Notes: generated by a model not told the origin, from the sequence alone. Counted from the first letter of the stretch, positions 10,692 to 37,912 are shown. The stretch: 63,631 nucleotides of DNA from Actinomycetota bacterium (GCA_016870595.1 VGBI01000004.1:1-63631); one strand, 5' to 3'. A program made the numbers and translations.

Positions 10692-10698
10692 GCAGGCC

Positions 10699-19289: not shown

Positions 19290-19312
19290 CCCATGGCGAC
19301 CGGAGCCTGCTC

Positions 19313-21400: not shown

Positions 21401-21403
21401 ACG

Positions 21404-22987: not shown

Positions 22988-24498
22988 TCGCGGCAGCCCC
23001 CATCGCCACCCCGGCCGTCGACCTCTGGGCGATCGCGCCGATCATCGCGCTGGTCGCGACCGGGGTCGGCCTGGTCCTGATCCGGGCCCTCCTGCGCCGG
23101 AACCCGGCGGTGACCGCGGTGTGCTTCTCGGTGGCGGTCGTCGGCCTGCTCGTCGCCGCCGGCCTGCTGGCCCGGCAGTGGCACCGGGTCCGCGACGACG
23201 GCCCGATCGTGAGTCTCGCCGACATGGTGCGGGTCGATCCGTTCGCGGTCTTCCTCGGCATCGTGGTCGTGGCCGCCACCCTCGCCGGGCTGCTCCTGTC
23301 GTACGCCTACCTTCGCCGGGAGGAGCTCGAGGCCCCCGAGTACTTCGCCCTGCTGCTGCTGTCGGCCGCCGGGATGCTGATGATGACCACGGCGAACGAC
23401 CTCGTGGTCGTCTTCGTGGCCCTCGAGGTCCTGTCGATCCCGCTCTACGTGCTCGTCGCCTTCGACCGGCGTCGGCTGCGGTCCCAGGAAGCCGGGCTCA
23501 AGTACTTCGTGCTCGGCGCGTTCTCGTCGGCGGTGTTCCTCTACGGGATCGCGCTCGTGTACGGCGCGACCGGGACCACCTCGCTCAGCGGGATCGCGAC
23601 GTTCCTCGCCGGGAACACCCTGTTCGAGCAGACCACGCTGCTCGTCGGCCTCGGGCTCCTGCTCGTCGGCCTCGGCTTCAAGGTCGCGGCGGTGCCGTTC
23701 CACATGTGGACCCCGGACGTCTACCAGGGGGCGCCGACCCCGGTGACCGCGTTCATGGCCGCCGCGACCAAGGCCGCCGCCTTCGCCGCGATCCTGCGCA
23801 TCGTGCTGACCGCCTTCCCGCAGTACCGCGACGACTGGCGCCCGATCCTCTGGGTGCTCGCGGCGCTGTCGATGCTTGTGGGCGCCATCGCCGCCCTGGC
23901 CCAGAACGACGTCAAGCGCACGCTCGCCTACTCGTCGATCGCCCACGCCGGGTACATCCTCATGGGCGTCTACGCCGCGACCTCCCGGGGCCGCGAGGCG
24001 GCGCTCCTCTACCTGCTCGTCTACGCCTTCATGGCGATCGGCGCGTTCGCGATCGTGATGATCGCCGCGCCCGGCTCCGACGACGCCAAGCACTCCTACG
24101 ACGACTACCGGGGCCTGGCCGTCCGCCGTCCGGTGCTCGGTGGGCTCCTGATCTTCTTCGTGCTTGCGCAGGCCGGAGTCCCGTTGACCAGCGGGTTCGT
24201 CGGCAAGCTCGAGCTGTTCGGCTCGGTCGCCCAGGCCGGCGAGACCAGCGACTACGTGCTCCTGGTCATCGGCGTCCTGTCCGCCGTGATCGCCTTCGCC
24301 TTCTACCTGCGGATCGCGTGGACCCTGGTCACCGCCCCCGACGACGACACCGCGGTGGCCGAGGCCTACTCGACCCGCCCCCGCCGGGTCGACGGCTGGA
24401 CCGGGATCGTCCTGGCCGGCGCCGCGGCGCTGACCCTGGTGGTCGGCGTGCTGCCGGGCACCTTCATCCACTTCGCCCGCGACGCCGTCTTCTTCTAG
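22984..24498 (+). CDS. nuoN: NADH-quinone oxidoreductase subunit N
   Basis: FVALEVLSIPLYVLV, FKVAAVPFHMWTPDVYQGAPTPVTAFM and LAYSSIAHAGY are ND2/NuoN signatures. GTGA junction with nuoM. Confidence 0.94.
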   Translation: MIAAAPIATPAVDLWAIAPIIALVATGVGLVLIRALLRRNPAVTAVCFSVAVVGLLVAAGLLARQWHRVRDDGPIVSLADMVRVDPFAVFLGIVVVAATLAGLLLSYAYLRREELEAPEYFALLLLSAAGMLMMTTANDLVVVFVALEVLSIPLYVLVAFDRRRLRSQEAGLKYFVLGAFSSAVFLYGIALVYGATGTTSLSGIATFLAGNTLFEQTTLLVGLGLLLVGLGFKVAAVPFHMWTPDVYQGAPTPVTAFMAAATKAAAFAAILRIVLTAFPQYRDDWRPILWVLAALSMLVGAIAALAQNDVKRTLAYSSIAHAGYILMGVYAATSRGREAALLYLLVYAFMAIGAFAIVMIAAPGSDDAKHSYDDYRGLAVRRPVLGGLLIFFVLAQAGVPLTSGFVGKLELFGSVAQAGETSDYVLLVIGVLSAVIAFAFYLRIAWTLVTAPDDDTAVAEAYSTRPRRVDGWTGIVLAGAAALTLVVGVLPGTFIHFARDAVFF

Positions 24499-26130: not shown

Positions 26131-26176
26131 GGGGTCATGGTCGCAGGTCGTGCCCGCCCGGTCCGGGAGCCGTCTC

Positions 26177-26212
26177 GGGCCGGGCGCCGGGCCGGGCGCC
26201 GGGCCGGGCGCG
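26177..26212. repeat. 3 x 12-bp tandem repeat gggccgggcgc(c/g), a run of GGG tracts
   Basis: Read directly, with units at 26177, 26189 and 26201. It lies in the divergent intergenic region between the patatin-like gene and the second nuoA. Confidence 0.9.
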
Positions 26213-26226
26213 GGGGCGGACGCGGT

Positions 26227-26257
26227 TTGTCCGGCGAGCGAGCCCCCTGCATAGACT
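26227..26257 (+). promoter_or_regulatory. weak candidate promoter for the second nuo operon (TTGTCC - 19 nt - TAGACT)
   Basis: Hexamers at 26227..26232 and 26252..26257. GGAGG (26287..26291) lies 7 nt before the nuoA GTG. The spacer is longer than optimal, so this is tentative. Confidence 0.25.
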
Positions 26258-26298
26258 GCGCCCGCAGGCCCACTGGGGTCCCGACGGAGGCTGCGCGC

Positions 26299-26661
26299 GT
26301 GACGGAGTTCTACCGGAGCTACCTCGCCGTGGCCGTGCTCATCCTGGCCGCGATCGGCATGGTGGGCTTCATGCTCGGGCTGGGCCGCCTGATCCGGCCG
26401 GTCCGGGCCCAGGAGCAGAAGTACATCCCGTACGAGGCCGGGTCCGACCCGACCGGGACCTTCGGCCAGTCGAACGTCCGGTACTACGTCTTCGCCCTGC
26501 TCTTCGTGATCTTCGACGTCGAGGCCGTGTTCATCTTCCCGTGGGCGGTCAACTTGGAGAGCCTCGGCTGGTTCGGTCTGGTCGAGATGACGGTCTTCGT
26601 CGTCGTGCTCACCCTGGGGCTCGTCTACGCCTGGCGCAAGGGGGTCCTGCGGTGGGCCTGA
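26299..26661 (+). CDS. nuoA: complex-I-like subunit A, second copy
   Basis: 120 aa. [28 protein letters not shown] and [10 protein letters not shown] are the NuoA/ND3 pattern, strongly diverged from copy 1. Confidence 0.9.
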
Positions 26662-27230
26662 TCGACAAGGGCCGGACGCCCAAGCCGCTCACCTGGCTGC
26701 TCAACTACAGCCGGAAGTACTCCCTGTGGATGTTCCAGTGGGGACTGGCCTGCTGCGCGATCGAGATGGGGGCCGCCTTGGCGAGCCCGCGCTACGACAT
26801 GATGCGCCTCGGCGTCATCCCCTTCCCGGCCAGCCCGCGCCAGGCCGACCTCGTGGTCATCTCGGGGACCGTCACCGACAAGATGGCCCCGGCCATCCGG
26901 CGCCTCTACGAGCAGATGCCCGACCCGAAGTACGTGATCTCGATGGGGTCGTGCGCCAACTGCGGCGGCCCCTACTGGGACTCGTACTCGGTCACCAAGG
27001 GCGTCGATCAGATCATCCCGGTCGACATCTACGTGCCGGGGTGCCCGCCCCGACCCGAGGCGCTGCTGCAGGCGATCGTCATGCTCCAGGCCCAGATCCA
27101 GAACGAGGGGATCGGCAACGACCAGCTCCAGAAGCGCTGGCGCGGTGAGCCGGTCGTGATCGACGACCCCCACACGGCGCCGGTGGTCCTCGGCCCGAAG
27201 CCCGAGCCGACGGCGGTGCCCGTTGTCTGA
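26652..27230 (+). CDS. nuoB: complex-I-like subunit B, second copy
   Basis: [20 protein letters not shown] and [10 protein letters not shown] mean all four N2 cluster cysteines are present. GTG start at 26652. Confidence 0.92.
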
Positions 27231-28032
27231 CGAGACGCCCGCCGTCACCGAGGGCGACGACGTGCCCGAGGCCGCGCCTCCGACCGCAGAGGCGCCTGCG
27301 CCCGAGACCGCAGAGGCGCCTGCGCCCGAGACCGCAGAGGCGCCTGCGCCCGAGACCGCAGAGGCGCGCCCGGACCCGGTCCACCTCGATCTCCTCGACC
27401 GGATCGAACGGGCCCTGCCCGGCGCGGTGATCGAGCACGGCACCGCCTGCGGCGAGCTCGTGATCCGGGTCACCAACCCCTCGTGGGGCCCGCTGGCCGG
27501 GGTCGCCCGCAGCGACCTCGAGTGCGACTACCTCTCGTTCGTCTCGGCCATCGACTGGGCGCCCACCCCCCGCGACGGCGGTGACGACGCCGGGGGCGAC
27601 ACCTCGGCGCCGGTGCAGCCGACGGAGATGACGTTCGGAGTGGCCGGCTCGGCGGGTCGGTTCCAGGTGTTCGCCCGTGTGCAGTCCACCGCCCGGGGCT
27701 GGGGCGCAACGTTCAAGGTCGACGTCGACGAGACGAACCCGCTCGTGGCGTCGTGGGTCGGGGTCTACCCCGGGGCCGACTGGCACGAGCGCGAGACCTG
27801 GGAGATGTTCGGCGTCCGCTTCGACGGCCACCCGAACCTGCGCCAGCTGTACCTGCCGGCCGGCTTCGAGGGGCACCCGCTGCGCAAGGACTTCCCGCTG
27901 CTGGCCCGGGTCGTGAAGCCCTGGCCCGGGCTGGTCGACGTCGAGGCGATGCCCGAGGAGGCCGCTGCGGTCACCGCCGGCGGAGACGGTGCAGGAGACG
28001 GTGCAGGAGACGGTGCAGGAGGTGGCGAGTGA
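27223..28032 (+). CDS. nuoC: complex-I-like subunit C, second copy, with repeat-encoded low-complexity N- and C-termini
   Basis: [43 protein letters not shown] is the NuoC signature. The start (TTG 27223 or GTG 27262) is uncertain. Confidence 0.88.
27283..27367 (+). repeat. in-frame 24-bp tandem repeat x3.5 (accgcagaggcgcctgcgcccgag, encoding TAEAPAPE) inside nuoC copy 2
   Basis: Units at 27283, 27307 and 27331, plus a partial unit at 27355, all identical. A second 12-bp x3 repeat (ggagacggtgca, GDGA) lies at 27982..28017. Confidence 0.95.
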
Positions 28033-29216
28033 GCACGACCGAGATGCCGAGCGCCCCGGACTTCGAGCTCGAGCGGAGCGCGATGCGTCATCTCGCCGAC
28101 GCCCAGATGAACGTCGAGCTGGACACCGGCGACATGATCCTCAACCTGGGTCCGCAGCACCCGGCCACGCACGGCACGCTGCGCCTCGTCGTCCGGCTCG
28201 ACGGCGAGCGGGTGATCGCGGCCGACCCCGTCATCGGCTACATGCACCGGGGCTACGAGAAGCTCACCGAGTTCCGGACCTACCCGCAGATCACCACGCT
28301 CATCAACCGCATCGACTGGCTGTCGAGCTTCGCCAACGAGGTGCCGTTCGTCCACGCGGCTGAGCAGCTGATGGGCATCGAGGCCCCGGCCCGGGCGCAG
28401 TACATCCGCACGATCCTCACGGAGCTCTCGCGCATCGCGACCTTCGTGCTGTTCCTCGGCGAGATGGGCCTGCAGGTCGGCGCGCTGACCCCGGCCTTCT
28501 ACGGCTTCCGTGACCGTGAGCACGTCCTCAACCTGATCGAGGGCGCGACCGGCGGTCGCTTCCACCCCAACTTCAACCGCATCGGCGGCCTCAAGGACGA
28601 CCTCCCGTGGGGCTGGGTGTCCGAGACCCGCCAGGTGATGCAGCTGGTCCTCGACTCGTGCGACCAGTTCGAGGACCTGGTGGTGGGCAACGAGATCTTC
28701 CTCAGCCGTACCCGGGGGATCGGCATCATCCCCGGCGACATCGGGACCGCCTACGGGGTGTCGGGATCCAACCTGCGCGCCTCGGGTGTCGACTGGGACC
28801 TCCGGCGCGACGGCGTGCCCTACCTCGCCTACCCCGACCTCGACTTCAAGGTCTGGACCCATGCGGCCGGCGACTCGTTCGCCCGGTACTGGGTCCGGCT
28901 CCAGGAGACCCGGGAGTCGGTGCGCATGGTCCTCCAGCTCCTCGACGGGCTGCCCGCCGGTCCGGTCATGGCCAAGGTGCCGCGCATCATCAAGGTGCCA
29001 GAGGGCGAGGCCTGGGTCGAGACCGAGAACCCCCTCGGGCAGATGGGGTACTACATCGTCTCCAAGGGAGCGACCGGGCCGTTCCGGGTCAAGATCCGGT
29101 CGGCGTCGTTCAGCAACGTGTCGATCCTGCCCTGGCTGCTCCGGGGTGTGTACGTTCCCGACGTCGTGACGATCCTCGCCTCGCTCTACTTCATCCTGGG
29201 GGACATCGACCGGTGA
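28029..29216 (+). CDS. nuoD: complex-I-like subunit D, second copy
   Basis: LNLGPQHPATHGTLRL, IGYMHRGYEK and the C-terminal YFILGDIDR. 395 aa. GTGA junction with nuoC copy 2. Confidence 0.93.
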   Translation: MSTTEMPSAPDFELERSAMRHLADAQMNVELDTGDMILNLGPQHPATHGTLRLVVRLDGERVIAADPVIGYMHRGYEKLTEFRTYPQITTLINRIDWLSSFANEVPFVHAAEQLMGIEAPARAQYIRTILTELSRIATFVLFLGEMGLQVGALTPAFYGFRDREHVLNLIEGATGGRFHPNFNRIGGLKDDLPWGWVSETRQVMQLVLDSCDQFEDLVVGNEIFLSRTRGIGIIPGDIGTAYGVSGSNLRASGVDWDLRRDGVPYLAYPDLDFKVWTHAAGDSFARYWVRLQETRESVRMVLQLLDGLPAGPVMAKVPRIIKVPEGEAWVETENPLGQMGYYIVSKGATGPFRVKIRSASFSNVSILPWLLRGVYVPDVVTILASLYFILGDIDR

Positions 29217-30256
29217 ACGCCGTTGCGCTCACGACCCTCGGGATCGAGATCGGCTGGGGTGCCGCCCTGGCGATCAAGACGCTGGTGATCCTGTTGATCA
29301 TCCCGGCGGGCGCGCTCATCCTCGGCTACGTCTTCCTGCTCAAGATGATGAGCCACATGCAGAGCCGGCTCGGCCCGATGGACCCGGGTGGCTTCCACGG
29401 CTGGTTCCAGCTGATCGGCGACGGCCTCAAGTTCGTGCAGAAGGAAGACCTGATGCCCGACGGGGCCGACCGCAAGGTCTTCGCCGGCGCCCCGGCCGTG
29501 GTCCTGATCTCGACCTTCCTGGTCTTCCTCGTCATCCCGATGGGCCCCGACCTCGTGGTCAAGGACCTCGACATCGGGGTGTTCTACGCCCTGGCGGTGT
29601 CGAGCCTCTCGGTCATCGGGATCCTGATGGCGGGCTGGTCGAGCGCGAACAAGTACGCCCTCCTGGGTGGGCTTCGGGCCGCGGGCCAGCTCATCGCCTA
29701 CGAGCTGCCCCTGCTCCTCGCCGTCATCGGGGTGGTCATCCAGGCCGGCACGATGAGCCTCAACGGGATCGTGGTCGCCCAGCAGCAGCAGTCGATCTTC
29801 GGGATCGACTGGATCGGGAACCCCTACATCCTCACCCAGTTCGTGGGCTTCCTGATCTTCCTCATCGCGGCGCAGGCCGAGCTCACCCAGACCCCGTTCG
29901 ACATGCCGGTCGCCGAGAGCGAGCTCGTCGGCGGGTACCACGTGGAGTACACGGGCTTCCGGTTCCTCTTCTTCTTCATGGGCGAGTACGGCACCGCCTT
30001 CGCGTTCTCGGCGATCGCCGCGACCCTGTTCCTCGGCGGGTACGCGCTGCCGTGGGTCGACGGCGACCTCGCCAACTGGATCGGCCCCCTCGTCCTCTTC
30101 GCCAAGCTCATGCTCGTGGCGTTCCTCATGTTCTGGGCCCGCTTCACCTTCCCGCGGCTCCGTGAGGACCAGCTCCAGGCGTTCGCGTGGAAGTTCCTGA
30201 TCCCGCTGGGCCTGGCGAACCTGCTCGTGACGGCCCTCTTCAAGGTGGCGTTCTGA
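29213..30256 (+). CDS. nuoH: complex-I-like subunit H, second copy
   Basis: [54 protein letters not shown] and PRLREDQL. Its GTG overlaps the nuoD copy 2 stop, leaving no room for E/F/G genes. Confidence 0.93.
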
Positions 30257-30744
30257 TGGCCCGCAAGAAGATCCCGGGGATGATCGGGGGTCTCGGTATC
30301 ACGTTCAAGACGATGCTGAAGCCCGCGGTGACGGTGCAGTACCCCCACGAGAAGGAGGAGCCCCCGACGCGGGCGCGCGGGGTGATCGCGCTCAAGGAGG
30401 AGAACTGCACCGTCTGCATGCTGTGCGCACGCTCGTGCCCCGACTGGTGCATCTACATCGAGGGTCACAAGGAGAAGCGCCCGCCCCGGCGTGAAGGCGG
30501 ACGCGACCGGACGGTCAGCGTCCTCGACCGCTTCGATATCGACTACTCCCTGTGCATGTACTGCGGGATCTGCGTCGAGGTCTGCCCCTTCGACGCGCTG
30601 TTCTGGAGCCCGGAGTACGAGTACTCCGAGCACAGCATCGCCCGCCTCCTCCACGACAAGGTGAAGTTGGGCGAGTGGATGGAGACCGTCCCGGAGCCCG
30701 AGCCGCTCGAGGTCGGCGCCGAGTCGGCGAAGAAGAAGAAGTAG
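30256..30744 (+). CDS. nuoI: complex-I-like subunit I, second copy
   Basis: [12 protein letters not shown] and [12 protein letters not shown] are two 4Fe-4S motifs. 162 aa. Confidence 0.92.
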
Positions 30745-30751
30745 CCCGGCC

Positions 30752-31258
30752 ATGTGGGAGCAGCAGGTCGCCTTCTGGATCATCGCGGTCGCCATGGCCG
30801 GCGCGGCGATCGGGGTCGTCCGCGCCAACAACGTGGTCCACGCCGCCCTCTTCCTCATCGTGGTGTTCGCCGGCAGCGCCGCGCAGTACATCCTGCTGCT
30901 CGCCGAGTTCGTCGCCTGGGTGCAGGTGCTGATCTACATCGGCGCCATCATCGTGCTGTTCCTCTTCGGCGTCATGCTCACCCGGGCCCCGATGCGCGAG
31001 GAACGCGGCAAGCTCGACAACTCCCAGCGCCTGGCTGCCGCCGTGGTGGCCCTGTTCCTGTTCGGCGTGCTCGCGGTGTTCCTCGTCGACGCCTTCGCCG
31101 GGACCGAGCTCCGCTTCCGCGACTCGATGGTCGAGGTCGGGAGCGCGGCGAGCGTCGGGGAGTCGATCTTCCGCCAGTTCGTGATCCCGTTCGAGGTCGT
31201 GTCGATGCTGCTCCTCGCCGCCCTGGTGGGCGCGGTCGCCCTGGCGCGGAGGGACTGA
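30752..31258 (+). CDS. nuoJ: complex-I-like subunit J, second copy
   Basis: [50 protein letters not shown] is the ND6/NuoJ pattern. Confidence 0.9.
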
Positions 31259-31262
31259 TCCG

Positions 31263-31562
31263 ATGCCGATCAACTACTTCCTGATCCTCAGCGCGTTCCT
31301 GTTCTGCGCCGGTGCGTACGGGGTCCTGGCCCGGCGGAACTCGGTGCTGGTCCTGATGAGCGTGGAGCTGATGCTCAACGCCGTGAACATCAACCTGATC
31401 GCGTTCTCGGCCCAGGCCCAGGACGTGGCCGGCCAGGTCTTCGCACTGTTCGTGATCACGATCGCTGCCGCCGAGGTCGGCATCGGTCTGGCCATCGTGC
31501 TGCTGATCTACCGCAACCTCCGGAGCCCCGATCTCGATCGGGTCGAGCAGCTGAAGGGCTGA
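31263..31562 (+). CDS. nuoK: complex-I-like subunit K, second copy
   Basis: 99 aa. [17 protein letters not shown] and [17 protein letters not shown]. Confidence 0.93.
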
Positions 31563-31570
31563 TTCGTACG

Positions 31571-33649
31571 ATGCTCGACAACGTCTGGATCATCCCGCTC
31601 ATCCCGGCGGTCTCGTACCTGCTGATCCTCTTCTTCGGCAAGCGCATGCCGAAGAAGGGGGCTGAGATCGGGATTGCCGCGCTCGGTGCGGCATTCGTGC
31701 TCGCCTGCATCACGGTGATGCAGTGGATCGACCGGGTCGAGGCCGCGGTCAGCAAGGAAGGTGGCGCGGCCACGGGCCTGGGTGCCCTCGGGCGCAGCGT
31801 CGTGGCTGCGGCAACCGGCGCTCCCGAGGTCGAGCCGGTCGTGCGCGGGTTCACCTGGTGGGAGAACGGGCCGGCCAAGTTCGAGATCGGTGCCCGCGTC
31901 GACGGTCTCGTCGTGATGATGCTGGTGGTCGTCACCCTCATCTCGCTGCTCGTGCACGTGTACAGCACGGCCTACATGCACGAGGACCGTCGCTTCACCC
32001 ACTACTACGCCGCGCTCTCGCTGTTCTCCGCCTCGATGCTGTTCATGGTCATCTCGGCGAACCTGCTGCAGCTCATGGTCGGGTGGGAGCTGGTCGGACT
32101 GTGCTCCTTCATGCTGATCGGGCACTGGTGGGAGGAGAAGCCGAACTCCAACGCAGCGTTGAAGGCCTTCCTCACCACCCGGACCGGTGACGTCGGCCTG
32201 ATGACGGGCATCATCATCGTCTTCTTTGCCGCCGGGTCGTTCGACATCTCGGTCGTCAACGAGTACGCCCTGAGCCCCGAGGTCAACCACGGCCTCATGA
32301 TGTGGGCGTCGGTGGCGCTGATGTTCGGCATCATGGGCAAGTCGGGACAGTTCTTCCTGCACACCTGGCTGCCCGACGCCATGGCCGGACCGACCCCGGT
32401 GTCGGCCCTCATCCACGCCGCGACCATGGTCGTCGCCGGCGTCTTCCTGGGTGCCCGCGTCTACCCGGTGTTCTGGGAGGGCTTCAGCATCGGTGGCGGC
32501 GGGCTCAACATGATGGCCGTCGTCGGCGGCGTCACGATCATCGTCGGGGCGGCGCTCGCCTTCGTCCAGAACGACATCAAGAAGGTGTTGGCCTACTCGA
32601 CCGTGAGCCAGCTCGGCTACATGGTCATGGCCCTCGGGGTCGGTGCCTGGCTGGGTGCGGTGTTCCACCTCTTCACCCACGCCTTCTTCAAGGCCTGCCT
32701 CTTCCTCGGGGCCGGCTCGATCAGCCACTCCGCCACCCACCACTCCTTCGACATGCGGGAGATGGGTGGGCTGCGCAAGCCCATGCCGGTCACCTTCTGG
32801 ACGTTCATCGTCGGCACCATCGCCCTGGCCGGCATCTTCCCCTTCGCCGGGTTCTGGTCGAAGGACGAGATCCTGGCCACCGCCGACCAGGGTGACTTCC
32901 GCATCTTCCTCGTGGTGGGTCTGATCGGCGCGGCCATGACCGCCGCCTACATGACCCGCTGCGTGTACCTCACGTTCTTCGGGCAGTACCGGGGTCATCA
33001 CCATCCGCACGAGTCCACCCCGGCCATCACCGTGCCGCTGGTGATCCTCGCAGTGCTCTCGGTGGTCGCTGGGCTCCTGCAGTCGGCACCGTTCGAGATC
33101 AAGAAGTTCCAGGAGTGGTTCGAGCAGGTGGGCGGCCTGCCGAAGGAGATGATCATCCCCGAGTTCGACTACGGCCTCGCGGCCATCTCGGTCAGCCTCG
33201 CCACCATCGTGGTCGGGGTCGCCGCCTTCTTCGTGTTCCGGCGCGAGGAGCACGGGGCCCTCAAGGGTCTCACCCAGCGCAACCGGGTCGCCCACGCGGG
33301 CTACCGGTTCCTCGAGCGCAAGTACTACCTCGACGACCTCTACGAGGGCGTCATCGTCGCCGGGGTCAAGGGGCCGATCGCCCGCGGCTCGAACTGGATC
33401 AACCAGTACGTCATCGACGGCGTCGTCAACGCCGTCGGACGGGGGAGCGCACGGGCGGGTCGCTGGGCCTACGAGGTCTTCGACCAGGAGGTCGTCGACG
33501 GCGCGGTCAACGACATCGGGCGCGAGACCGTCTTGGCGGGCGGCGGCATGTCGAAGCTGCAGTCCGGACGACTCCAGCGGTACGCCCTCTTCCTGCTCGC
33601 CTCCGTCGGGGTCATCGGCCTTGCGGTCTACATCGTCAACGTCGCTTAG
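31571..33649 (+). CDS. nuoL: complex-I-like subunit L, second copy
   Basis: MVGWELVGLCSFMLIGHWW, GKSGQFFLHTWLPDAMAGPTPVSALIHAATMVVAGV and WSKDEIL. 692 aa. Confidence 0.93.
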   Translation: MLDNVWIIPLIPAVSYLLILFFGKRMPKKGAEIGIAALGAAFVLACITVMQWIDRVEAAVSKEGGAATGLGALGRSVVAAATGAPEVEPVVRGFTWWENGPAKFEIGARVDGLVVMMLVVVTLISLLVHVYSTAYMHEDRRFTHYYAALSLFSASMLFMVISANLLQLMVGWELVGLCSFMLIGHWWEEKPNSNAALKAFLTTRTGDVGLMTGIIIVFFAAGSFDISVVNEYALSPEVNHGLMMWASVALMFGIMGKSGQFFLHTWLPDAMAGPTPVSALIHAATMVVAGVFLGARVYPVFWEGFSIGGGGLNMMAVVGGVTIIVGAALAFVQNDIKKVLAYSTVSQLGYMVMALGVGAWLGAVFHLFTHAFFKACLFLGAGSISHSATHHSFDMREMGGLRKPMPVTFWTFIVGTIALAGIFPFAGFWSKDEILATADQGDFRIFLVVGLIGAAMTAAYMTRCVYLTFFGQYRGHHHPHESTPAITVPLVILAVLSVVAGLLQSAPFEIKKFQEWFEQVGGLPKEMIIPEFDYGLAAISVSLATIVVGVAAFFVFRREEHGALKGLTQRNRVAHAGYRFLERKYYLDDLYEGVIVAGVKGPIARGSNWINQYVIDGVVNAVGRGSARAGRWAYEVFDQEVVDGAVNDIGRETVLAGGGMSKLQSGRLQRYALFLLASVGVIGLAVYIVNVA

Positions 33650-33669
33650 CTGAGGGGATCACACGGCAC

Positions 33670-35220
33670 ATGGACTGGTTCGATGACTGGGCGCTGACCC
33701 TCGCGGTCTTCACCCCGCTCGTCGGGATGGCGATCGTCTTGCTGATCCCGCGGGCGGAGGAAGCTGCGATCAAGGTCGTCGCCCTCCTCACCTCTCTCGT
33801 GACCCTGGCGATCGGGGTCGGCATCCTCGTCGACTTCGACTTCGGGAACACGGCCAAGATGCAGTTCCAGGTCGACAAGGAGTGGATCCCGGTCATCAAC
33901 GCCCGGTACCACCTCGGGATTGACGGCATCTCGCTGCCGCTGCTGATCCTGACCATGGTGATCGTGCCGTTGTGCATCATCTACTCGCTGGACCACTTCC
34001 CGGAGCCGCACAACCCGAAGGCGTTCCTGGCCCTGATCCTCCTGCTCGAGGTCGGGATGATCGGGACCTTCGTCGCCCTCGACCTCGTGCTCTTCTTCAT
34101 CTTCTTCGAGGTCGTCCTCCTCCCGATGTTCTTCATGATCGGGGTCTGGGGGGGCCCGAACCGCGAGTACGCGTCGATCAAGTTCTTCCTCTTCACCCTC
34201 TTCGGCTCGGCGCTGATGCTGGTGAGCTTCCTCGCCCTCTACTTCCTGTCGAAGCGGTCGACGTTCGACATCAGCACCCTCGCCTCGTTCGAGGGTGCCG
34301 GCATCACCAGGGGCACCCAGGTCCTGCTGTTCGCCGGCCTCTTCCTCGGCTTCGCGATCAAGGTGCCGATGTTCCCGTTCCACACCTGGCTCCCCGATGC
34401 CCACACCGAGGCGCCGACGGTGGGCTCGGTGCTGCTGGCCGCCGTGCTCCTGAAGCTCGGCACCTACGGCTTCATCCGCATCGCACTGCCGATCCTGCCC
34501 GAGGGGGCGCAGGTCTGGGCCCCCTGGATCGGCCTCCTGTCGGTCATCGGCATCATCTACGGCGCCCTGTGCTGTCTGGCGCAACGCGACATGAAGCGGC
34601 TGATCGCGTTCTCGTCGGTCGCCCACATGGGCTTCGTGATGCTCGGCATCGCGACGCTCACCGACTTCGGCGTCAACGCCGCCGTGTTCGGCATGGTCGC
34701 CCACGGTCTCATCACCGGGATGCTGTTCTTCCTGGCCGGCTCGATCCAGCACCGCTACCACACCCGGGAGATGTCCCGGCTCGGTGGCCTGCTCGTCTCG
34801 GCACCGAAGATGGGCTGGATCCTCGGCTTCTGCGCCATGGCCTCCCTCGGCCTGCCCGGCCTGGCCGGCTTCTGGGGCGAGTTCCCGGCGGTGCTCAGCG
34901 CGTTCGAGCCGTCACGCCTGGCCAACGGCATCCTCGGCAACACCGCCAGCACGCTCTGGACCTTCCGGACCTTCATGGTCGTCGCTGCGATCGGCACCGT
35001 CCTGGCGGCCGGCTACCTCCTCTGGATGTACCAGCGGGTCGGCATGGGGACGCCCAAGCCGGAGTTCGAGGACGCCCACATCCACGACGTCCACCGCCCC
35101 GAGTGGGTGGCCTGGACGCCGCTGCTCCTGGGCATCGTGGTCTTCGGTCTGTTCCCGAACCTGATCTTCTCCATCACCAACGACGCCGCCAGCTCGATCA
35201 CCCGAGCCTTCTCGGGTTAG
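33670..35220 (+). CDS. nuoM: complex-I-like subunit M, second copy
   Basis: FFIFFEVVLLPMFFMI, KVPMFPFHTWLPDAHTEAPTVGSVLLAAV and IAFSSVAHMGF. ATG at 33670 is preceded by GAGGGGA. Confidence 0.92.
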   Translation: MDWFDDWALTLAVFTPLVGMAIVLLIPRAEEAAIKVVALLTSLVTLAIGVGILVDFDFGNTAKMQFQVDKEWIPVINARYHLGIDGISLPLLILTMVIVPLCIIYSLDHFPEPHNPKAFLALILLLEVGMIGTFVALDLVLFFIFFEVVLLPMFFMIGVWGGPNREYASIKFFLFTLFGSALMLVSFLALYFLSKRSTFDISTLASFEGAGITRGTQVLLFAGLFLGFAIKVPMFPFHTWLPDAHTEAPTVGSVLLAAVLLKLGTYGFIRIALPILPEGAQVWAPWIGLLSVIGIIYGALCCLAQRDMKRLIAFSSVAHMGFVMLGIATLTDFGVNAAVFGMVAHGLITGMLFFLAGSIQHRYHTREMSRLGGLLVSAPKMGWILGFCAMASLGLPGLAGFWGEFPAVLSAFEPSRLANGILGNTASTLWTFRTFMVVAAIGTVLAAGYLLWMYQRVGMGTPKPEFEDAHIHDVHRPEWVAWTPLLLGIVVFGLFPNLIFSITNDAASSITRAFSG

Positions 35221-35230
35221 GAGCCGTTCC

Positions 35231-36700
35231 GTGGGTACCCCGTACTTCGACTACCACGCGCTCGCGCCGGTCATCGTGCTGGCGGCCGTTGCGCTGCTCG
35301 CCTTGGTCGTCGACTTCGTCTGGAAGGACGGTGGTCGTCGGGCCGTGCCCCAGATCGCGGGGATCGGGCTGCTCCTCGCACTGATCCCGGTGTTCACCCT
35401 CGCGGCCGACGGCGAGACCCGGTCGATGTTCGGCGGCGCGTTCGTGGTCGACAACTACGCGCTGGCCTTCGCCGGGTTCTTCCTCATCGTGGGCTACGTG
35501 GCGGTCCTGATGTCGTATGACTACATCGACGAAGGCGACTACTACCGGGGCGAGTACTACGTGCTGCTGGTCACCTCGGTGCTGGGGATGGTCGTCCTCG
35601 CCTCGGCCCGCGACCTCATCACGATCTTCGTCGCGATCGAGACGGTCACCCTGCCGACCTTCGTGCTCGCCGGGTGGCGCAAGCACGACACCCGGTCCAA
35701 CGAGGCCGCGATCAAGTACTTCATCATCGGCGTCCTGTCATCGGCGGTCATGCTCTACGGCATGTCGCTCATCTTCGGTCTGAGCAACAGCACCCTGCTC
35801 TCCGAGATCGGCTCGGTGGCGAGTGGCGACAATCCCGCCCTCTTCGCGGTGGCGATCTTCCTCACCCTCGCCGGCTTCGCCTTCAAGGTCTCGGCAGTGC
35901 CCTTCCACTTCTGGGCGCCCGACACCTACCAGGGCGCCCCGCTCCCGGTGACGGCGTTCCTGTCGGTGGCGTCGAAGGCGGCCGGGTTCGTGGCCATGCT
36001 CTCCGTCGTCGCCCTCGGCTTCTTCGCCAGCCCGAACTCCTGGCAGCCCGTGATCTGGATCCTCGCCGCCGCCTCCATCGTGGTGGGGAACCTGGCCGCA
36101 CTGCGCCAGACCGATGTCGTGCGGATGCTCGCCTACTCCTCGGTGGCCCAGGGTGGGTTCATCCTGGTGCCCTTGGCGGTGTCGGGCGACAACGACGCCG
36201 CCCGGGCCGGCTTCCAGGGCGTGCTCGTCTACATCCTCATCTACGCCGCGATGAACATGGGTGCGTTCGCCTGCGTGATCGCCAACGCCCGGCGCACCCG
36301 CTCCACCGAGATCCAGTCCTTCTCGGGTCTGGGGCGGTCCAACCCGGCGATGGCCGTGGTCTTCACGGTCTTCCTGTTCTCGCTGGCCGGCATCCCCCCC
36401 TTCGCCGGGTGGTTCGCCAAGTTCGTGATGTTCCGGGCCGTCCTCGACGCCGGGACCACCGCCGCCGTCGTGCTGGGCGTGCTGGCCGCAGTGTTCTCGG
36501 TGGTCGCGTTCTTCTACTACGGCACGGTGATCCGGCGGATGTGGTTCCACGCGCCGGTCGATCTGGGCGACACCGGGTCGCCGCAGGTCCCGGGGGCCCT
36601 GGTGGCGGCGATGGCCATCACCACCACGGTGGTCGTCGTGATCGGGGTCTATCCGCAGCTGTTCGCCAAGATCGGGGATCTCGCCTTCCGGGCGACCTGA
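35231..36700 (+). CDS. nuoN: complex-I-like subunit N, second copy
   Basis: FVAIETVTLPTFVLA, FKVSAVPFHFWAPDTYQGAPLPVTAFL and LAYSSVAQGGF. 489 aa. Confidence 0.92.
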   Translation: MGTPYFDYHALAPVIVLAAVALLALVVDFVWKDGGRRAVPQIAGIGLLLALIPVFTLAADGETRSMFGGAFVVDNYALAFAGFFLIVGYVAVLMSYDYIDEGDYYRGEYYVLLVTSVLGMVVLASARDLITIFVAIETVTLPTFVLAGWRKHDTRSNEAAIKYFIIGVLSSAVMLYGMSLIFGLSNSTLLSEIGSVASGDNPALFAVAIFLTLAGFAFKVSAVPFHFWAPDTYQGAPLPVTAFLSVASKAAGFVAMLSVVALGFFASPNSWQPVIWILAAASIVVGNLAALRQTDVVRMLAYSSVAQGGFILVPLAVSGDNDAARAGFQGVLVYILIYAAMNMGAFACVIANARRTRSTEIQSFSGLGRSNPAMAVVFTVFLFSLAGIPPFAGWFAKFVMFRAVLDAGTTAAVVLGVLAAVFSVVAFFYYGTVIRRMWFHAPVDLGDTGSPQVPGALVAAMAITTTVVVVIGVYPQLFAKIGDLAFRAT

Positions 36701-36748: not shown

Positions 36749-37912
36749 ATGGAGCTCGAGGCCCGGCTCCGGGAACGGATCGGTCGGGAGGGACCGATCG
36801 CCTTCGCCGACTTCCAGGAGGCGGCGCTCTACGACCCGGTGGCGGGTTTCTTCTCCCGAGGTGGGGGCGCGGGCCGGGCCGGACGCGACTTCGTGACCAG
36901 CCCCGAGGTCGGCGGACTGTTCGGGATGGTGGTGGCGCGTGCGCTCGACGCCGCCTGGGACCGCCTGGGCCGACCCGACCCGTTCCTGGTCGTCGAGGCG
37001 GGGGCCGGACGCGGGCGACTGGCCGCCGACGTCCTGCGGTCCCACCCGGCCTGCGCGCCGGCGCTGCGCTACGTCCTGGTCGAGCGGTCGGCCCAGCTCC
37101 GCGACGAGCAGCGGTCCCGGTTGCCGGTCGAGCCCCCCGACGAGGCGCTCGGTCCCTTCGTGACCGGCGACGACGAGGTGCCCGAGCCCGAGCCGGGGCG
37201 GGGTCCGATCGTGACCGCCCTCGAGGAGCTGCCCGCAGTGACGGTGCGCGGGGTAGTGCTGGCCAACGAGCTGCTCGACAACCTCCCGGTCCACCTGGTC
37301 GAGCGGACGGCATCGGGGTGGGCCGAGGTCCGCGTCGACTGCGACGACGTCGGCTTCACCGAGACCGTCGTCCCCGCGCCGCCGGCGCTGGCCGCGGAGG
37401 CCGACGTCGTGGCCGAGGGCGCGGTGGTCGTCCCGGGCGCCCGGATCCCGGTGCCCCGGGCCGCCCGGGCCTGGCTCGAAGCGGTGAGTGCGCGGCTCCG
37501 GGTCGGTGAGGTCGTCCTGTTCGACTACGTCGACACCACGTCGTCGCTGGCGGCCCGGGGTCAGGCGGCCTGGCTGCGCACCTATCGCGGGCACGAGCGC
37601 GGCGACGGTCCCCTTCGTGAACCCGGGACCCAGGACATCACCTGCGACCTGCCGCTCGAGTACCTCCGCCACGTGACCGCGCGCCTGGGGCTGTCCGTGG
37701 TCGAGTACCGCACGCAGCGTGAGTGGCTGGCCGGTCACGGTATCGCCGACCTCGTCGCCGACGGCGACCGCATCTGGCGGGAGGGGGCCGCCCGGGGCGA
37801 CCTGGCCGCGCTGGCCGGGCGGAGCCGGGGGGTCGAGGCGGCCGCGCTCACCGACCCGGCGGGGCTGGGGGCACACCGGGTCCTGGTGCTGCGTCGCGAC
37901 GCCTCGGGATAG
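36749..37912 (+). CDS. class I SAM-dependent methyltransferase of the MidA/NDUFAF7 (DUF185, COG1565) family
   Basis: [49 protein letters not shown] and TQDITCDL match the MidA/NDUFAF7 conserved blocks as I recall them. It lies 48 nt after nuoN copy 2 on the same strand. Confidence 0.8.

What the first reader, a model, noticed from the sequence alone, without database searches (positions are those of the whole stretch)
26299..36700. Second, deeply diverged 11-gene complex-I-like operon with no NADH-oxidising module (no nuoE/F/G)
Seen in the sequence:
- The window holds a canonical nuoA-N operon (9077..24498), and 1.8 kb further on a second co-directional set A,B,C,D,H,I,J,K,L,M,N.
- In the second set the nuoH GTG overlaps the nuoD stop (GTGA at 29213..29216), so E/F/G are absent by design rather than lost to a gap.
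- The Fe-S ligands are intact: NuoB CC..C..C, and two CxxCxxCxxxCP motifs in NuoI.
- The two sets differ extensively at the protein level. For example NuoK reads [15 protein letters not shown] in one and [17 protein letters not shown] in the other, and the NuoD sequences differ throughout. This is not a recent duplication.

Established knowledge: 11-subunit relatives exist. Cyanobacterial NDH-1 is ferredoxin-driven, archaeal Fpo is F420H2-driven, and Streptomyces has annotated nuo2 loci. Their donor modules are lineage-specific and are uncharacterised for actinobacterial versions.

Inference: the complex docks an unidentified electron-input protein.
Basis: partly seen in the sequence, partly recalled or inferred. 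Interest (0 to 1): 0.65.

Follow-up and report, generated by a model that had tools for sequence, protein, structure and literature searches.

The report
Second complex I lacking NADH module
Next to its ordinary 14-gene respiratory complex I, this uncultured freshwater actinobacterium has a second, intact and conserved 11-gene version without the NADH-oxidising part, followed by an assembly-factor-like methyltransferase gene; the arrangement is already published for related Acidimicrobiia and its electron donor is still unknown.

Summary
Window 26299-36700 holds nuoA,B,C,D,H,I,J,K,L,M,N with no nuoE/F/G, and the nuoD stop overlaps the nuoH start. Fe-S ligands and proton-pump residues are intact. 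Identity to the upstream 14-gene operon is only 31-49%.

The operon is functional, not decayed. Gene order is the same in 80 Actinomycetota/Acidimicrobiia genome loci and in a marine sister clade. dN/dS is 0.08-0.28. Metatranscriptome contigs span gene junctions.

It is not new as a kind. 11-subunit complex I in actinobacteria, Streptomyces nuo2, and the paired nuo14/nuo11 clusters of Ca. Actinomarinales are published, as is the NDUFAF7 gene downstream.

Three details go beyond the finding:
- A PF02636 (NDUFAF7/MidA-like) methyltransferase gene follows nuoN2 in 44 of 50 loci.
- The arginine that NDUFAF7 methylates in mitochondria is present in NuoD2 (R74), but NuoD1 has Thr there.
- The quinone site is remodelled across the clade: Thermus Tyr87 is Trp, and Asp139 is Gln or Glu.

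No redox-partner gene is conserved next to the operon, so the donor was not identified. Reduced ferredoxin is my favoured inference. F420H2, or borrowing NuoEFG from the first operon, remain possible.

The parts
26131..26298 (+). Intergenic region upstream of nuoA2, the presumed promoter/leader. It contains a 12-bp x4 tandem repeat (CGGGCCGGGCGC) at 26176-26223.
   Evidence: Lies between the divergent patatin-like gene (25249-26130, -) and nuoA2. Repeat found. No sigma-70 consensus was found; that scan is not informative for high-GC actinobacteria.
26299..26661 (+). nuoA2 (120 aa), membrane subunit. Conserved D73 and E75.
   Evidence: PF00507 at 118.6 bits. NCBIfam NuoA models hit at 3e-36, below the equivalog cut-offs. 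Residues checked. 31.5% identical to NuoA1.
26652..27230 (+). nuoB2 (192 aa), carrier of cluster N2. All four Cys ligands present (C34, C35, C101, C131).
   Evidence: NF005012 at 222.7 bits, above its cut-off of 116. Cys ligands. 49% identical to NuoB1.
27223..28032 (+). nuoC2 (269 aa). It has a low-complexity N-terminal extension (APAPETAE repeats), an internal insertion and a Gly/Asp-rich C-terminal tail.
   Evidence: PF00329 at 107 bits. Perfect 24-bp x3.6 repeat at 27282-27367 and 12-bp x3.3 repeat at 27982-28021. It is the least conserved subunit, 38-74% identical in relatives.
28029..29216 (+). nuoD2 (395 aa), quinone-site subunit.
- His44 and His48 are retained.
- Arg74 occupies the position of bovine NDUFS2 Arg85.
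- Trp97 replaces Thermus Tyr87.
- Gln149 replaces Thermus Asp139.
- A segment of about 22 aa found in canonical NuoD is absent.
- It has a single Cys, so no NiFe ligands.
   Evidence: NF004739 at 401 bits, above its cut-off of 360. Alignments to E. coli, NuoD1, Thermus Nqo4 and NdhH. RIDWL in 119 of 120 homologues and RIDW in all 80 loci. R74. Cys count.
29213..30256 (+). nuoH2 (347 aa). Its GTG start overlaps the nuoD2 stop (GTGA).
   Evidence: PF00146 at 331 bits. Conserved E78, E164, D230, E237, E245 and K298; the position of E. coli E216 is Val. A metatranscriptome contig spans 29028-29363 with 7 mismatches.
30256..30744 (+). nuoI2 (162 aa), a 2x[4Fe-4S] subunit and the likely electron entry point. 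It is compact, with a basic N-terminus (MARKK) and a conserved C-terminal tail ...[14 protein letters not shown](G)KK.
   Evidence: Two CxxCxxCxxxCP motifs. TIGR01971 at 98.7 bits. The tail is conserved in all loci that contain the gene. pI is 6.9, against 5.4 for NuoI1.
30752..31258 (+). nuoJ2 (168 aa)
   Evidence: PF00499 at 128.6 bits. Y62 conserved.
31263..31562 (+). nuoK2 (99 aa). Both membrane Glu residues are present (E35, E71).
   Evidence: PF00420 at 103.9 bits. Residues.
31571..33649 (+). nuoL2 (692 aa), antiporter-like subunit with a C-terminal lateral-helix region and a terminal transmembrane segment.
   Evidence: NF005141 at 597.9 bits, above its cut-off of 556. E173, D207, K257, D335, H366, H370, K431 and D432 are conserved.
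33670..35220 (+). nuoM2 (516 aa), antiporter-like subunit
   Evidence: TIGR01972 at 561 bits. E147, K231, K262, H319, H345 and E404 are conserved.
35231..36700 (+). nuoN2 (489 aa), antiporter-like subunit
   Evidence: TIGR01770 at 385.5 bits, above its cut-off of 332.6. E137, K219, K249 and K397 are conserved; the position of E. coli K295 is Val.
36749..37912 (+). Twelfth gene: a SAM-dependent methyltransferase of the NDUFAF7/MidA family (PF02636). It is the probable assembly factor that methylates NuoD2 Arg74.
   Evidence: PF02636 at 145.6 bits. PDB hits: 4f3n at 3.5e-27 and Dictyostelium MidA 5ztz at 2.8e-17. It lies 48 nt after nuoN2 with no terminator predicted between them. It sits directly after nuoN2 in 44 of 50 loci, often abutting or overlapping. 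dN/dS is 0.23.

Best explanation
Window 26299-37912 is a 12-gene operon. It encodes a functional complex-I-like proton pump without an N-module (nuoABCDHIJKLMN, the 'NUO11' type) plus an NDUFAF7/MidA-like methyltransferase.

Shown by sequence:
- Q-module: NuoB2/C2/D2/I2, with cluster N2 and two [4Fe-4S] clusters.
- P-module: NuoA2/H2/J2/K2/L2/M2/N2, with nearly all canonical Glu/Lys/His/Asp pump residues.
- No NuoE/F/G.

Inferred:
- Electrons enter one at a time at the exposed NuoI2 clusters from a soluble low-potential carrier. The most likely carrier is reduced ferredoxin made by 2-oxoacid:ferredoxin oxidoreductases, which replace 2-oxoglutarate dehydrogenase in related Acidimicrobiia.
- Electrons then pass through N2 to menaquinone in a lineage-specific quinone site (His48 kept, Trp97 for Tyr, Gln149 for Asp) and drive proton export.
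- The downstream methyltransferase modifies NuoD2 Arg74 next to N2 during assembly. NuoD1 has Thr at that position, so the enzyme would act on the second complex only.
- The neighbouring 14-gene complex handles NADH.
For: Gene content and family assignments.

Cofactor and pump residues.

Not a hydrogenase: NuoD2 has one Cys and no NiFe motifs. Scores against Mbh and FHL are much lower than against complex I.

Functional, not decaying:
- 11-gene order is invariant in 80 genome loci and in the marine and mid-GC sister clade.
- The closest 120 NuoD2 homologues are 84-98% identical.
- dN/dS is 0.08-0.28 for all 12 genes against L001.
- Metatranscriptome contigs at 97-99% identity cross the A2/B2, C2/D2 and D2/H2 junctions.

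Independent lineage from Nuo1.

Methyltransferase link:
- PF02636 and MidA homology.
- Adjacency in 44 of 50 loci.
- R74 is invariant in the NuoD2 clade while NuoD1 has Thr.
- The bovine peptide KCDPHIGLLHRGTEK defines the site, and Thermus has Thr there (PMC3750175).

No neighbouring redox partner.

Ferredoxin plausibility:
- Related Acidimicrobiia (UBA5794) lack 2-oxoglutarate dehydrogenase and carry KOR (PMC12008989).
- NuoI2 has a conserved basic C-terminal tail and a higher pI than NuoI1.
Against: - The donor was not tested in any way. Only 63 kb of the genome is visible, and it holds no ferredoxin, KOR/PFOR, FpoF or F420 gene.
- The KOR argument comes from a different order of Acidimicrobiia.
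- The nuo14 operon sits directly upstream in 39 of 55 loci. Every lineage for which I have information keeps both operons, so dependence of Nuo2 on NuoEFG is not excluded.
- Tyr87Trp in canonical complex I severely lowers quinone reductase activity (PMC4758237). The acceptor or binding mode may therefore differ from what I assume.
- Co-transcription of the methyltransferase gene rests on spacing and the lack of a predicted terminator only. Metatranscriptomes can contain DNA.
- Methylation of R74 is an inference. E. coli has the Arg but does not methylate it.
Confidence: 0.5

Rival explanations
1. F420H2:menaquinone oxidoreductase. An FpoF-like (FrhB-family) subunit encoded elsewhere in the genome docks on the Q-module, as in Methanosarcina Fpo, and oxidises reduced coenzyme F420.
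For: This was suggested for the homologous truncated cluster of Ca. Actinomarinales, on the basis of up to 35% identity to M. mazei Fpo and the spread of F420 in Actinobacteria (PMC7771536). The short NuoD2 aligns end to end with the FpoD model. From my own knowledge, fpoF in Methanosarcina is not part of the fpo operon, so its absence from this locus is not decisive.
Against: - Every subunit scores better on Nuo models than on Fpo models and far below the Fpo cut-offs: FpoD 346 vs 600, FpoH 235 vs 475, FpoL 404 vs 1050, FpoI 52 vs 180.
- No FpoF or FpoO gene lies in the window or beside the operon in more than 120 loci.
- Fpo keeps Tyr87 but lacks His38 and Asp139 (PMC4758237). NuoD2 shows the opposite pattern at the first two positions: it keeps His and has lost Tyr.
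- F420 biosynthesis in this organism was not examined.
Confidence: 0.15
2. Alternative chassis for the same N-module. NuoE/F/G from the adjacent 14-gene operon also assemble onto the Nuo2 Q/P modules. This would give a second NADH:menaquinone oxidoreductase with different quinone-site or pumping properties.
For: The two operons are neighbours in 39 of 55 loci, and in 8 of them less than 200 nt apart. Even the streamlined Ca. Actinomarinales keep both (PMC7771536). Moody et al. proposed subunit exchange for the Streptomyces nuo2 genes (PMC3765725).
Against: - Nuo2 duplicates the entire Q-module, not only the antiporter subunits, and is 31-49% identical to Nuo1. Interfaces with NuoG would have to be kept across that distance.
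- NuoD2 lacks a segment of about 22 aa present in all N-module-bearing NuoD sequences compared.
- NuoI2 lacks the long C-terminal extension of NuoI1.
- The NuoD2 clade groups only with 11-gene operons.
- In D. hafniense, NuoE/F homologues did not co-vary with the 11-subunit enzyme (PMC11238625).
Confidence: 0.15
3. Reverse operation. The complex uses the proton-motive force to push electrons from menaquinol up to ferredoxin or another low-potential acceptor. The altered quinone site (Trp97, Gln149) would be tuned for quinol oxidation.
For: The quinone site is remodelled across the clade. Reverse electron flow to ferredoxin has been proposed for the extra Nuo complexes of Nitrospirales (PMC12342949).
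Against: No ferredoxin-consuming pathway (rTCA, nitrogenase) is evident in the window. The organisms are freshwater or marine, and most are taken to be aerobic heterotrophs (PMC7771536). The antiporter-subunit number is standard, with no extra NuoM. Nothing here bears on direction.
Confidence: 0.08
4. Silent or decaying duplicate with no function.
For: None found.
Against: All 11 reading frames are intact and have all ligands. dN/dS is 0.08-0.28. NuoD2 is 71-92% identical across a class-level range of genomes. Transcripts are seen in metatranscriptomes.
Confidence: 0.02

Closest known systems
Truncated (EFG-less) nuo cluster of 'Ca. Actinomarinales'/'Ca. Actinomarina' (Lopez-Perez et al. 2020, PMC7771536; Bulzu et al. 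2021, bioRxiv 10.1101/2021.02.01.429150)
   Same: - Same class (Acidimicrobiia).
- Same 11-gene order A,B,C,D,H-N.
- A full 14-gene nuo operon lies close by.
- An NDUFAF7 (PF02636) gene lies downstream.
- My marine low-GC loci L082-L125 are of this kind. Their NuoD is 53-59% identical to NuoD2, with Trp at the Tyr87 position and the Arg74 equivalent.
   Different: - Here the organism is a 72% GC freshwater lineage.
- No heliorhodopsin or iron-uptake cluster lies between the operons; rpiA and a patatin-like gene are there instead.
- acs and a HAD phosphatase lie downstream, rather than htpX and pspE.
- The Asp139 position is Gln here and Glu in the marine clade.
Streptomyces nuo2 genes (nuoA2, B2, D2, H2-N2; Moody et al. 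2013, PMC3765725)
   Same: A second, N-module-less nuo set in an actinobacterium that also has nuoA-N. Reported as expressed as one operon.
   Different: In Streptomyces the set lies far from nuoA-N and nuoD2 is not contiguous with the rest. Here all 11 genes are contiguous and 1.8 kb from the first operon. I could not test orthology to the Streptomyces proteins because no Streptomyces sequence was available to the tools.
[quoted passage not shown]
   Same: Same nuoABCDHIJKLMN operon. Short NuoD: the best NCBIfam model is the 366-aa PRK12322, with an end-to-end match. Donor unknown. The NuoC N-terminal extension noted in Bacillaceae has an analogue here in the low-complexity extension of NuoC2.
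   Different: Other 11-gene operons recovered here (41-47% NuoD identity) keep the canonical Tyr and Asp. No NDUFAF7-like gene is reported there. Those organisms have no accompanying 14-subunit enzyme.
Cyanobacterial/chloroplast NDH-1 (ferredoxin:plastoquinone oxidoreductase; PDB 6hum and others)
   Same: Eleven homologous core subunits, no NuoEFG, and electrons received from ferredoxin (PMC11238625). NdhH is the second-best solved match to NuoD2 at 325 bits and also has the Arg74 equivalent.
   Different: NDH-1 has small additional subunits involved in ferredoxin binding (PMC4758237); from my own knowledge these are phototroph-specific (NdhS, V, O and others), and no equivalent is encoded next to this operon. 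It keeps Tyr and Asp at the quinone site and has the ~22-aa NuoD segment that NuoD2 lacks. Its genes are split over several loci.
Archaeal Fpo (F420H2:methanophenazine oxidoreductase) and the FpoF-less Fpo of Methanosaeta/Methanomassiliicoccales
   Same: Eleven homologous core subunits, a short FpoD-like NuoD and no NuoEFG. The FpoF-less forms are proposed to take electrons from ferredoxin (PMC4153887).
   Different: All Fpo NCBIfam models score far below their cut-offs and below the Nuo models. There is no FpoO or FpoF. The acceptor there is methanophenazine. Fpo has Tyr87 but lacks His38 and Asp139 (PMC4758237).
NDUFAF7/MidA, the arginine methyltransferase that dimethylates NDUFS2 Arg85 (Rhein et al. 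2013, PMC3829151; Carroll et al. 2013, PMC3750175)
   Same: The gene at 36749-37912 belongs to PF02636 and matches Dictyostelium MidA at 2.8e-17. The target Arg-Gly is present in NuoD2. The modification also occurs in Paracoccus.
   Different: The family's origin has been described as proteobacterial (title cited in PMC9006661). Here it is operon-linked to an N-module-less complex in Actinomycetota. Activity and substrate are untested.

Membership tests
[quoted passage not shown] | Contiguous nuoA,B,C,D,H,I,J,K,L,M,N genes | tested here: met
   The order is conserved in more than 120 loci.
[quoted passage not shown] | No nuoE, nuoF or nuoG within the operon | tested here: met
   The nuoD2 stop overlaps the nuoH2 start. 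tblastn with E1, F1 and G1 finds only the first operon.
[quoted passage not shown] | NuoD lacks the NiFe-binding cysteine pairs, which separates it from group-4 membrane-bound hydrogenases | tested here: met
   NuoD2 has a single Cys (C211). The N-terminal motif is QHPATHG and the C-terminus is LGDIDR. Mbh scores 146 bits and FHL 142 bits, against 343 for Nqo4.
[quoted passage not shown] | Intact Q-module cofactor sites: N2 with a tandem Cys pair in NuoB, and two [4Fe-4S] motifs in NuoI | tested here: met
[quoted passage not shown] | Three antiporter-like subunits and NuoH/A/J/K carrying the conserved charged pump residues | tested here: met
   All key residues are present except the positions of E. 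coli NuoN K295 (Val here) and NuoH E216 (Val here). Residue numbers are from memory and were checked against the E. coli sequence.
[quoted passage not shown] | Whole genome lacks an N-module (strict 'NUO11 organism' sense of Degli Esposti 2015) | tested here: not met
   The same window carries nuoE, F and G in the first operon. The operon is of NUO11 type, but the organism has both forms.
Canonical quinone-reducing complex I (Nuo/Nqo) | Quinone headgroup ligands Tyr87 and His38, with Asp139 as partner (Thermus Nqo4 numbering) | tested here: not met
   His is kept (H48), but Tyr is replaced by Trp97 and Asp by Gln149. This holds across the clade. NuoD1 has Tyr and Asp.
Fpo (F420H2 dehydrogenase) | FpoF (F420H2-oxidising subunit) and FpoO are present, and subunits reach the Fpo model cut-offs | tested here: not met
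   No such gene lies in the window or in the flanks. Fpo models score far below their cut-offs. A copy elsewhere in the genome could not be tested.
Photosynthetic NDH-1 | Oxygenic-phototroph-specific subunits (NdhL-O, NdhS, NdhV) that form the ferredoxin site | not testable with these tools
   None lies next to the operon. The rest of the genome is not available. The host is an actinobacterium, so they are not expected.
NDUFAF7/MidA methyltransferases (PF02636) | Pfam PF02636 domain above the gathering score, and homology to solved MidA | tested here: met
   145.6 bits against a cut-off of 23.3. 5ztz at 2.8e-17 and 4f3n at 3.5e-27. Sources name the homologues MidA or NDUFAF7.
NDUFAF7/MidA methyltransferases (PF02636) | Substrate Arg (bovine NDUFS2 Arg85, motif HRG) present in the partner NuoD | tested here: met
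   NuoD2 has IGYMHRGYEK (R74), while NuoD1 has IGYLHTGMEK. The site is defined in PMC3750175.
NDUFAF7/MidA methyltransferases (PF02636) | Symmetric dimethylation of that Arg, and a requirement for it in complex assembly | not testable with these tools
   Needs mass spectrometry and genetics.

The most novel reading that the evidence does not exclude
The Acidimicrobiia Nuo2 enzyme may be a mechanistically distinct subclass of complex I, not just 'complex I minus the N-module'.

Its terminal redox site has been rebuilt:
- Trp replaces the quinone-ligating Tyr.
- Gln or Glu replaces the Asp that partners the catalytic His.
- An Arg next to cluster N2, absent from the cell's own NuoD1, is probably methylated by an operon-encoded NDUFAF7 homologue.

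Under this reading the enzyme would bind menaquinone or a different acceptor in a non-canonical way, have a shifted N2 and quinone-site potential, and be naturally insensitive to classical Q-site inhibitors. It would also be the first bacterial case, outside the proteobacterial lineage that gave rise to mitochondria, in which the arginine-methylating assembly factor is genetically tied to its complex.
Probability: 0.2. Interest if true: 0.6.

Novelty: new member of a known kind. Interest (0 to 1): 0.3.

Why it matters
The electron donor of non-photosynthetic 11-subunit complex I remains an open question in bioenergetics (PMC3144371; PMC11238625, 2024).

This locus does not answer it, but it offers a useful comparative system. 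One genome carries an NADH-type and an N-module-less complex side by side. They differ in a small set of diagnostic residues: Tyr/Trp, Asp/Gln and Thr/Arg74. An NDUFAF7-like gene is attached only to the second complex.

The clade is abundant in lakes, soils and the ocean, including Ca. Actinomarinales. Its members are reported to run the TCA cycle through ferredoxin-dependent KOR. Knowing how that ferredoxin is re-oxidised therefore matters for energy budgets of very common aquatic bacteria.

For annotation, the practical lesson is that 'NADH-quinone oxidoreductase subunit X' labels on these 11 genes probably misstate the substrate.

Tried and rejected
- Rex regulation. I suspected a Rex repressor next to the hem genes and searched for Rex operator sites (TTGTGAA-N4-TTCACAA, up to 3 mismatches). 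There were no matches. The suspected gene is a siroheme-synthase-like NAD-binding protein.
- Donor gene in the neighbourhood.
  - Window flanks hold rpiA, a patatin-like gene, acs, a HAD phosphatase, an EamA transporter, an FtsH-like protein, a GNAT, hem genes and ribosomal/rpoBC genes.
  - In the six loci without the methyltransferase, the downstream genes are unrelated: SDR, acetoacetate decarboxylase, PhyH, P450 and Fpg.
  - No redox partner was found.
- Promoter and terminator scans were uninformative for this GC content. Rfam found only tRNAs.
- RNA runs. No transcriptome of the organism itself exists. Only metatranscriptome contigs of relatives were available, with 5-11% of words shared.
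- Arginine assignment. I first took the Arg of HGxLR to be the NDUFAF7 target. The bovine peptide in PMC3750175 showed that the target is the Arg of HRG. This is corrected in the notebook.
- The Lys-rich FpoI tail of Methanosaeta as a ferredoxin dock is recalled from memory. The literature search did not confirm it, so it is not used as evidence.
- Insertion counting in the large NuoD alignment failed for technical reasons. The deletion is documented instead by the pairwise alignments.
- Naming the nearest non-actinobacterial NuoD clusters gave only MAG labels, some of them archaeal. This was too thin for a claim.
- Structure prediction was not run. Only 84-98% identical homologues could be submitted, and a model would not reveal the donor.

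Full report

Yes. Reading the + strand from 26299 to 36700 gives eleven tightly packed genes. NCBIfam and Pfam assign them, in order, to NuoA, B, C, D, H, I, J, K, L, M and N.
- Junctions are overlaps of 1-10 nt (A2/B2, B2/C2, C2/D2, D2/H2, H2/I2) or gaps of 4-20 nt.
- The GTGA at 29213-29216 is both the nuoD2 stop and the nuoH2 start, so nothing is missing through a gap.
- The upstream operon (9077-24498) has all 14 genes. Its E, F and G were confirmed by Pfam, and tblastn finds no other E/F/G copy in the 63.6-kb window.
- NuoB2 has the four N2 cysteines, including the tandem pair. NuoI2 has two CxxCxxCxxxCP motifs.
- The two sets are 31-49% identical protein by protein.

**2. Is it alive?**

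Yes.
- NuoD2 has more than 7,900 database relatives at E<1e-20, and the closest 120 are 84-98% identical.
- A scan of one genome per species returned 80 loci. Almost all are MAGs labelled Actinomycetota, Acidimicrobiia or Actinomycetes, plus the isolate Desertimonas flava. NuoD2 identity is 71-92%.
- In every one the order A2-B2-C2-D2-H2-I2-J2-K2-L2-M2-N2 is kept.
- Nei-Gojobori dN/dS against the closest locus (L001) is 0.08-0.28 for each of the eleven genes.
- The window itself is found at 57-94% of sampled words in about twenty lake and freshwater metagenomes, so the source is an uncultured freshwater actinobacterium.
- No transcriptome of it exists. However, metatranscriptome contigs from river, sediment and other samples lie on the operon. 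Some are near-identical and cross gene junctions: 29028-29363 over D2/H2 with 7 mismatches, 28022-28279 over C2/D2 with 3, and 26449-26821 over A2/B2 with 12. DNA carry-over in such libraries cannot be excluded.

**3. What kind of enzyme?**

The proton-pumping machinery is canonical. I aligned both sets with the E. coli subunits (locus L081). The set-2 proteins keep the following:
- NuoL: the TM5 Glu, TM7 Lys, the His pair and the Lys/Asp of TM12.
- NuoM: E, K, K, H, H, E.
- NuoN: E, K, K, K.
- NuoK: both Glu residues.
- NuoA: the Asp/Glu pair.
- NuoH: most of the acidic residues.
- Exceptions: only two positions differ, Val at the position of NuoN K295 and Val at the position of NuoH E216.

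NuoD2 has one cysteine and none of the NiFe motifs. Among solved structures it scores:
- 343 bits to Thermus Nqo4
- 325 to cyanobacterial NdhH
- 257 to Mycobacterium smegmatis NuoD
- 214 to MBS
- 146 to Mbh

It is therefore a complex-I-type enzyme, not a hydrogenase. It is also not a recent offshoot of the actinobacterial 14-subunit enzyme.

In a neighbour-joining tree of 192 NuoD sequences, NuoD2 groups with its high-GC relatives and with a marine low-GC and mid-GC clade. That makes 47 sequences, and all with known context come from 11-gene operons. NuoD1 groups with Thermus and the 14-gene operons. The tree is crude (distance method, midpoint root) and only indicative.

**4. A twelfth gene**

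Forty-eight nucleotides after nuoN2 lies a 387-aa protein (36749-37912).
- It hits Pfam PF02636 (Methyltransf_28) at 145.6 bits.
- It matches the solved COG1565 protein 4f3n (3.5e-27) and Dictyostelium MidA/NDUFAF7 (2.8e-17).
- No terminator is predicted between it and nuoN2.
- In 44 of 50 related loci with enough downstream DNA the homologue follows nuoN2 directly, often abutting or overlapping it. It is also detectable downstream in the marine clade.
- Its dN/dS is 0.23.

In mitochondria NDUFAF7 symmetrically dimethylates Arg85 of NDUFS2, the NuoD homologue. The site lies in the peptide KCDPHIGLLHRGTEK, about 7 A from cluster N2. Thermus has Thr there, Paracoccus carries the modification and E. 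coli does not (PMC3750175).

In this window NuoD2 reads IGYMHRGYEK (Arg74) and NuoD1 reads IGYLHTGMEK (Thr84). The Arg is present in 119 of 120 close homologues and in 42 of 42 sister-clade loci where the motif could be read. So the candidate substrate of the methyltransferase exists only in the second complex. That fits its position in the second operon. Actual methylation is an inference.

**5. A remodelled quinone site**

Alignments with E. coli, NuoD1, Thermus Nqo4 and NdhH show three things:
- NuoD2 keeps both histidines of the QHPxxHG loop (Thermus H34 and H38).
- It has Trp97 where all the others have the quinone-ligating Tyr (Thermus Y87), and Gln149 where they have Asp139, the partner of His38.
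- It lacks a segment of about 22 residues (Thermus 315-336) that is present in the N-module-bearing enzymes and in NdhH.

RIDW is invariant in all 80 loci and Gln in nearly all. The marine and mid-GC sister clade has Trp plus Glu. Other 11-gene operons picked up by the same scan (41-47% identity) have the canonical Tyr and Asp. The change is therefore a trait of this actinobacterial clade, not of N-module-less enzymes in general.

Among 111 full-length 50%-identity representatives nearest to NuoD2, about one fifth have Trp at this position, in several combinations.

Degli Esposti (PMC4758237) noted Y87W in the NuoD of piericidin-producing Streptomyces. He recalled that the same engineered change strongly lowers decylubiquinone reduction and confers inhibitor resistance. 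He also noted that Fpo keeps Tyr87 but lacks His38 and Asp139. What Trp97 and Gln149 mean for the acceptor here is unexplained. A different menaquinone binding mode is my guess.

**6. The donor**

Nothing in the window or in the conserved neighbourhood is a redox partner.
- The flanks are rpiA, a patatin-like gene, acetyl-CoA synthetase, a HAD phosphatase, an EamA transporter, an FtsH-like protease and a GNAT.
- Further out lie a hem cluster and the tuf-secE-nusG-rplKAJL-rpoBC region.
- Where the methyltransferase is absent, the downstream genes are unrelated to each other.

This matches the literature. No dedicated partner has been found for 11-subunit enzymes (PMC3144371), and the donor was still open in 2024 (PMC11238625).

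I favour reduced ferredoxin for four reasons:
- (b) Related Acidimicrobiia are reported to lack 2-oxoglutarate dehydrogenase and to carry KOR (PMC12008989). That creates a need for ferredoxin re-oxidation in aerobes.
- (c) NuoI2 is compact, less acidic than NuoI1 (pI 6.9 vs 5.4) and ends in a conserved Lys-rich tail.
- (d) No partner gene is linked to the operon.

All of this is circumstantial.

The published suggestion for the Actinomarinales homologue is F420 (PMC7771536). Against it, Fpo models score well below Nuo models and below their own cut-offs for every subunit, and no FpoF-like gene is linked. A distal fpoF cannot be excluded.

Sharing of NuoEFG with the adjacent operon also cannot be excluded. 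The two operons are neighbours in 39 of 55 loci, and all lineages I have information on keep both.

**7. Comparison with what is known, and novelty**

As a kind, this is known:
- 11-subunit complex I occurs in actinobacteria (PMC3144371).
- Streptomyces has nuoA2, B2, D2 and H2-N2, expressed as an operon (PMC3765725).
- Ca. Actinomarinales have two nearby nuo clusters, one lacking EFG (PMC7771536).
- The context 'nuoABCDHIJKLMN - NDUFAF7' has been listed for Ca. Actinomarina (bioRxiv 10.1101/2021.02.01.429150).

The present locus is a new, high-GC freshwater member.

I did not find the following in the papers I could search:
- The Arg74/Thr84 dichotomy between the two NuoD paralogues of one genome, which ties the methyltransferase to the second complex.
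- The clade-wide Tyr-to-Trp and Asp-to-Gln/Glu replacement at the quinone site.

These are modest additions. My literature access is incomplete; for example, the Cell Reports MidA paper was not available.

**8. Verdict**

- Observation: confirmed.
- Interpretation: partly supported. The operon is designed without an N-module, is ancient and is functional. The 'docks an unidentified input protein' step is untested, and a soluble carrier without a dedicated module is at least as likely.
- Novelty: new member of a known kind.
- Interest: 0.3.

Noticed in passing
window 36749-37912 (+): A PF02636 (NDUFAF7/MidA-like) methyltransferase gene lies 48 nt after nuoN2 and is conserved there in 44 of 50 related loci. 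Its mitochondrial target residue (NDUFS2 Arg85) corresponds to Arg74 in NuoD2, but to Thr84 in NuoD1 of the same genome.
   Followed up: yes
window 28029-29216 (NuoD2 residues W97, Q149; gap after about residue 320): The quinone-site Tyr (Thermus Y87) is Trp, and the His-partner Asp139 is Gln. This holds across the clade, with Glu in the marine sister clade. A segment of about 22 aa present in canonical NuoD is absent. Other 11-gene operons keep Tyr and Asp.
   Followed up: partly
window 27282-27367 and 27982-28021 (inside nuoC2): Perfect in-frame tandem repeats: 24 bp x3.6 encoding APAPETAE repeats, and 12 bp x3.3 encoding GDGA repeats. They form low-complexity N- and C-terminal extensions of NuoC2. 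Their perfection suggests recent expansion. A NuoC N-terminal extension was also noted in the Bacillaceae 11-subunit enzymes.
   Followed up: partly
window 26176-26223: A 12-bp unit (CGGGCCGGGCGC) repeated four times lies in the 168-nt intergenic region between the divergent patatin-like gene and nuoA2. It may be regulatory or just a GC-rich slippage product.
   Followed up: no
window 30256-30744 (NuoI2 C-terminus) vs 17696-18367 (NuoI1): NuoI2 ends in a conserved ...[14 protein letters not shown](G)KK tail in all relatives. NuoI1 instead carries an acidic, His/Gly-rich C-terminal extension of about 60 aa (…[15 protein letters not shown]).
   Followed up: partly
window 8312-9067 (+): A 251-aa Ala/Gly-rich multi-pass membrane protein with no Pfam hit lies directly upstream of nuoA1. 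It is not a heliorhodopsin, the gene found between the nuo clusters in Ca. Actinomarinales.
   Followed up: partly
window ~1490-8272 (-): A haem/sirohaem biosynthesis cluster lies on the minus strand upstream of the first nuo operon. By sequence inspection it holds hemL, hemB, a cobA-hemD fusion, hemC and hemA. A siroheme-synthase-like NAD-binding protein (PF13241) lies at 7586-8272. A cytochrome c fragment lies at 2-400.
   Followed up: partly
window 42695-45124 (+): An FtsH-like protein (AAA + peptidase M41 domains) has a long insertion containing a poly-Gly run (GGGGGGGGGG) inside the ATPase region. Pfam splits the AAA domain into two stretches.
   Followed up: no
window 46031-47218 (+): The local dip in GC (0.64) and the positive GC skew at 46-48 kb is an EF-Tu (tuf) gene with atypical codon usage. 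It is flanked by tRNA-Thr/Met and rpmG-tRNA-Trp-secE-nusG, so it is an ordinary highly expressed region and not foreign DNA.
   Followed up: yes
L001-L080 (for example L005, L007, L011, L012: gap of 71-181 nt between nuoN1 and nuoA2): In 39 of 55 related loci the 14-gene operon lies directly upstream of the 11-gene operon. In eight of them the gap is under 200 nt, so the two may be co-transcribed in some lineages. In the window they are separated by rpiA and a divergent patatin-like gene.
   Followed up: partly
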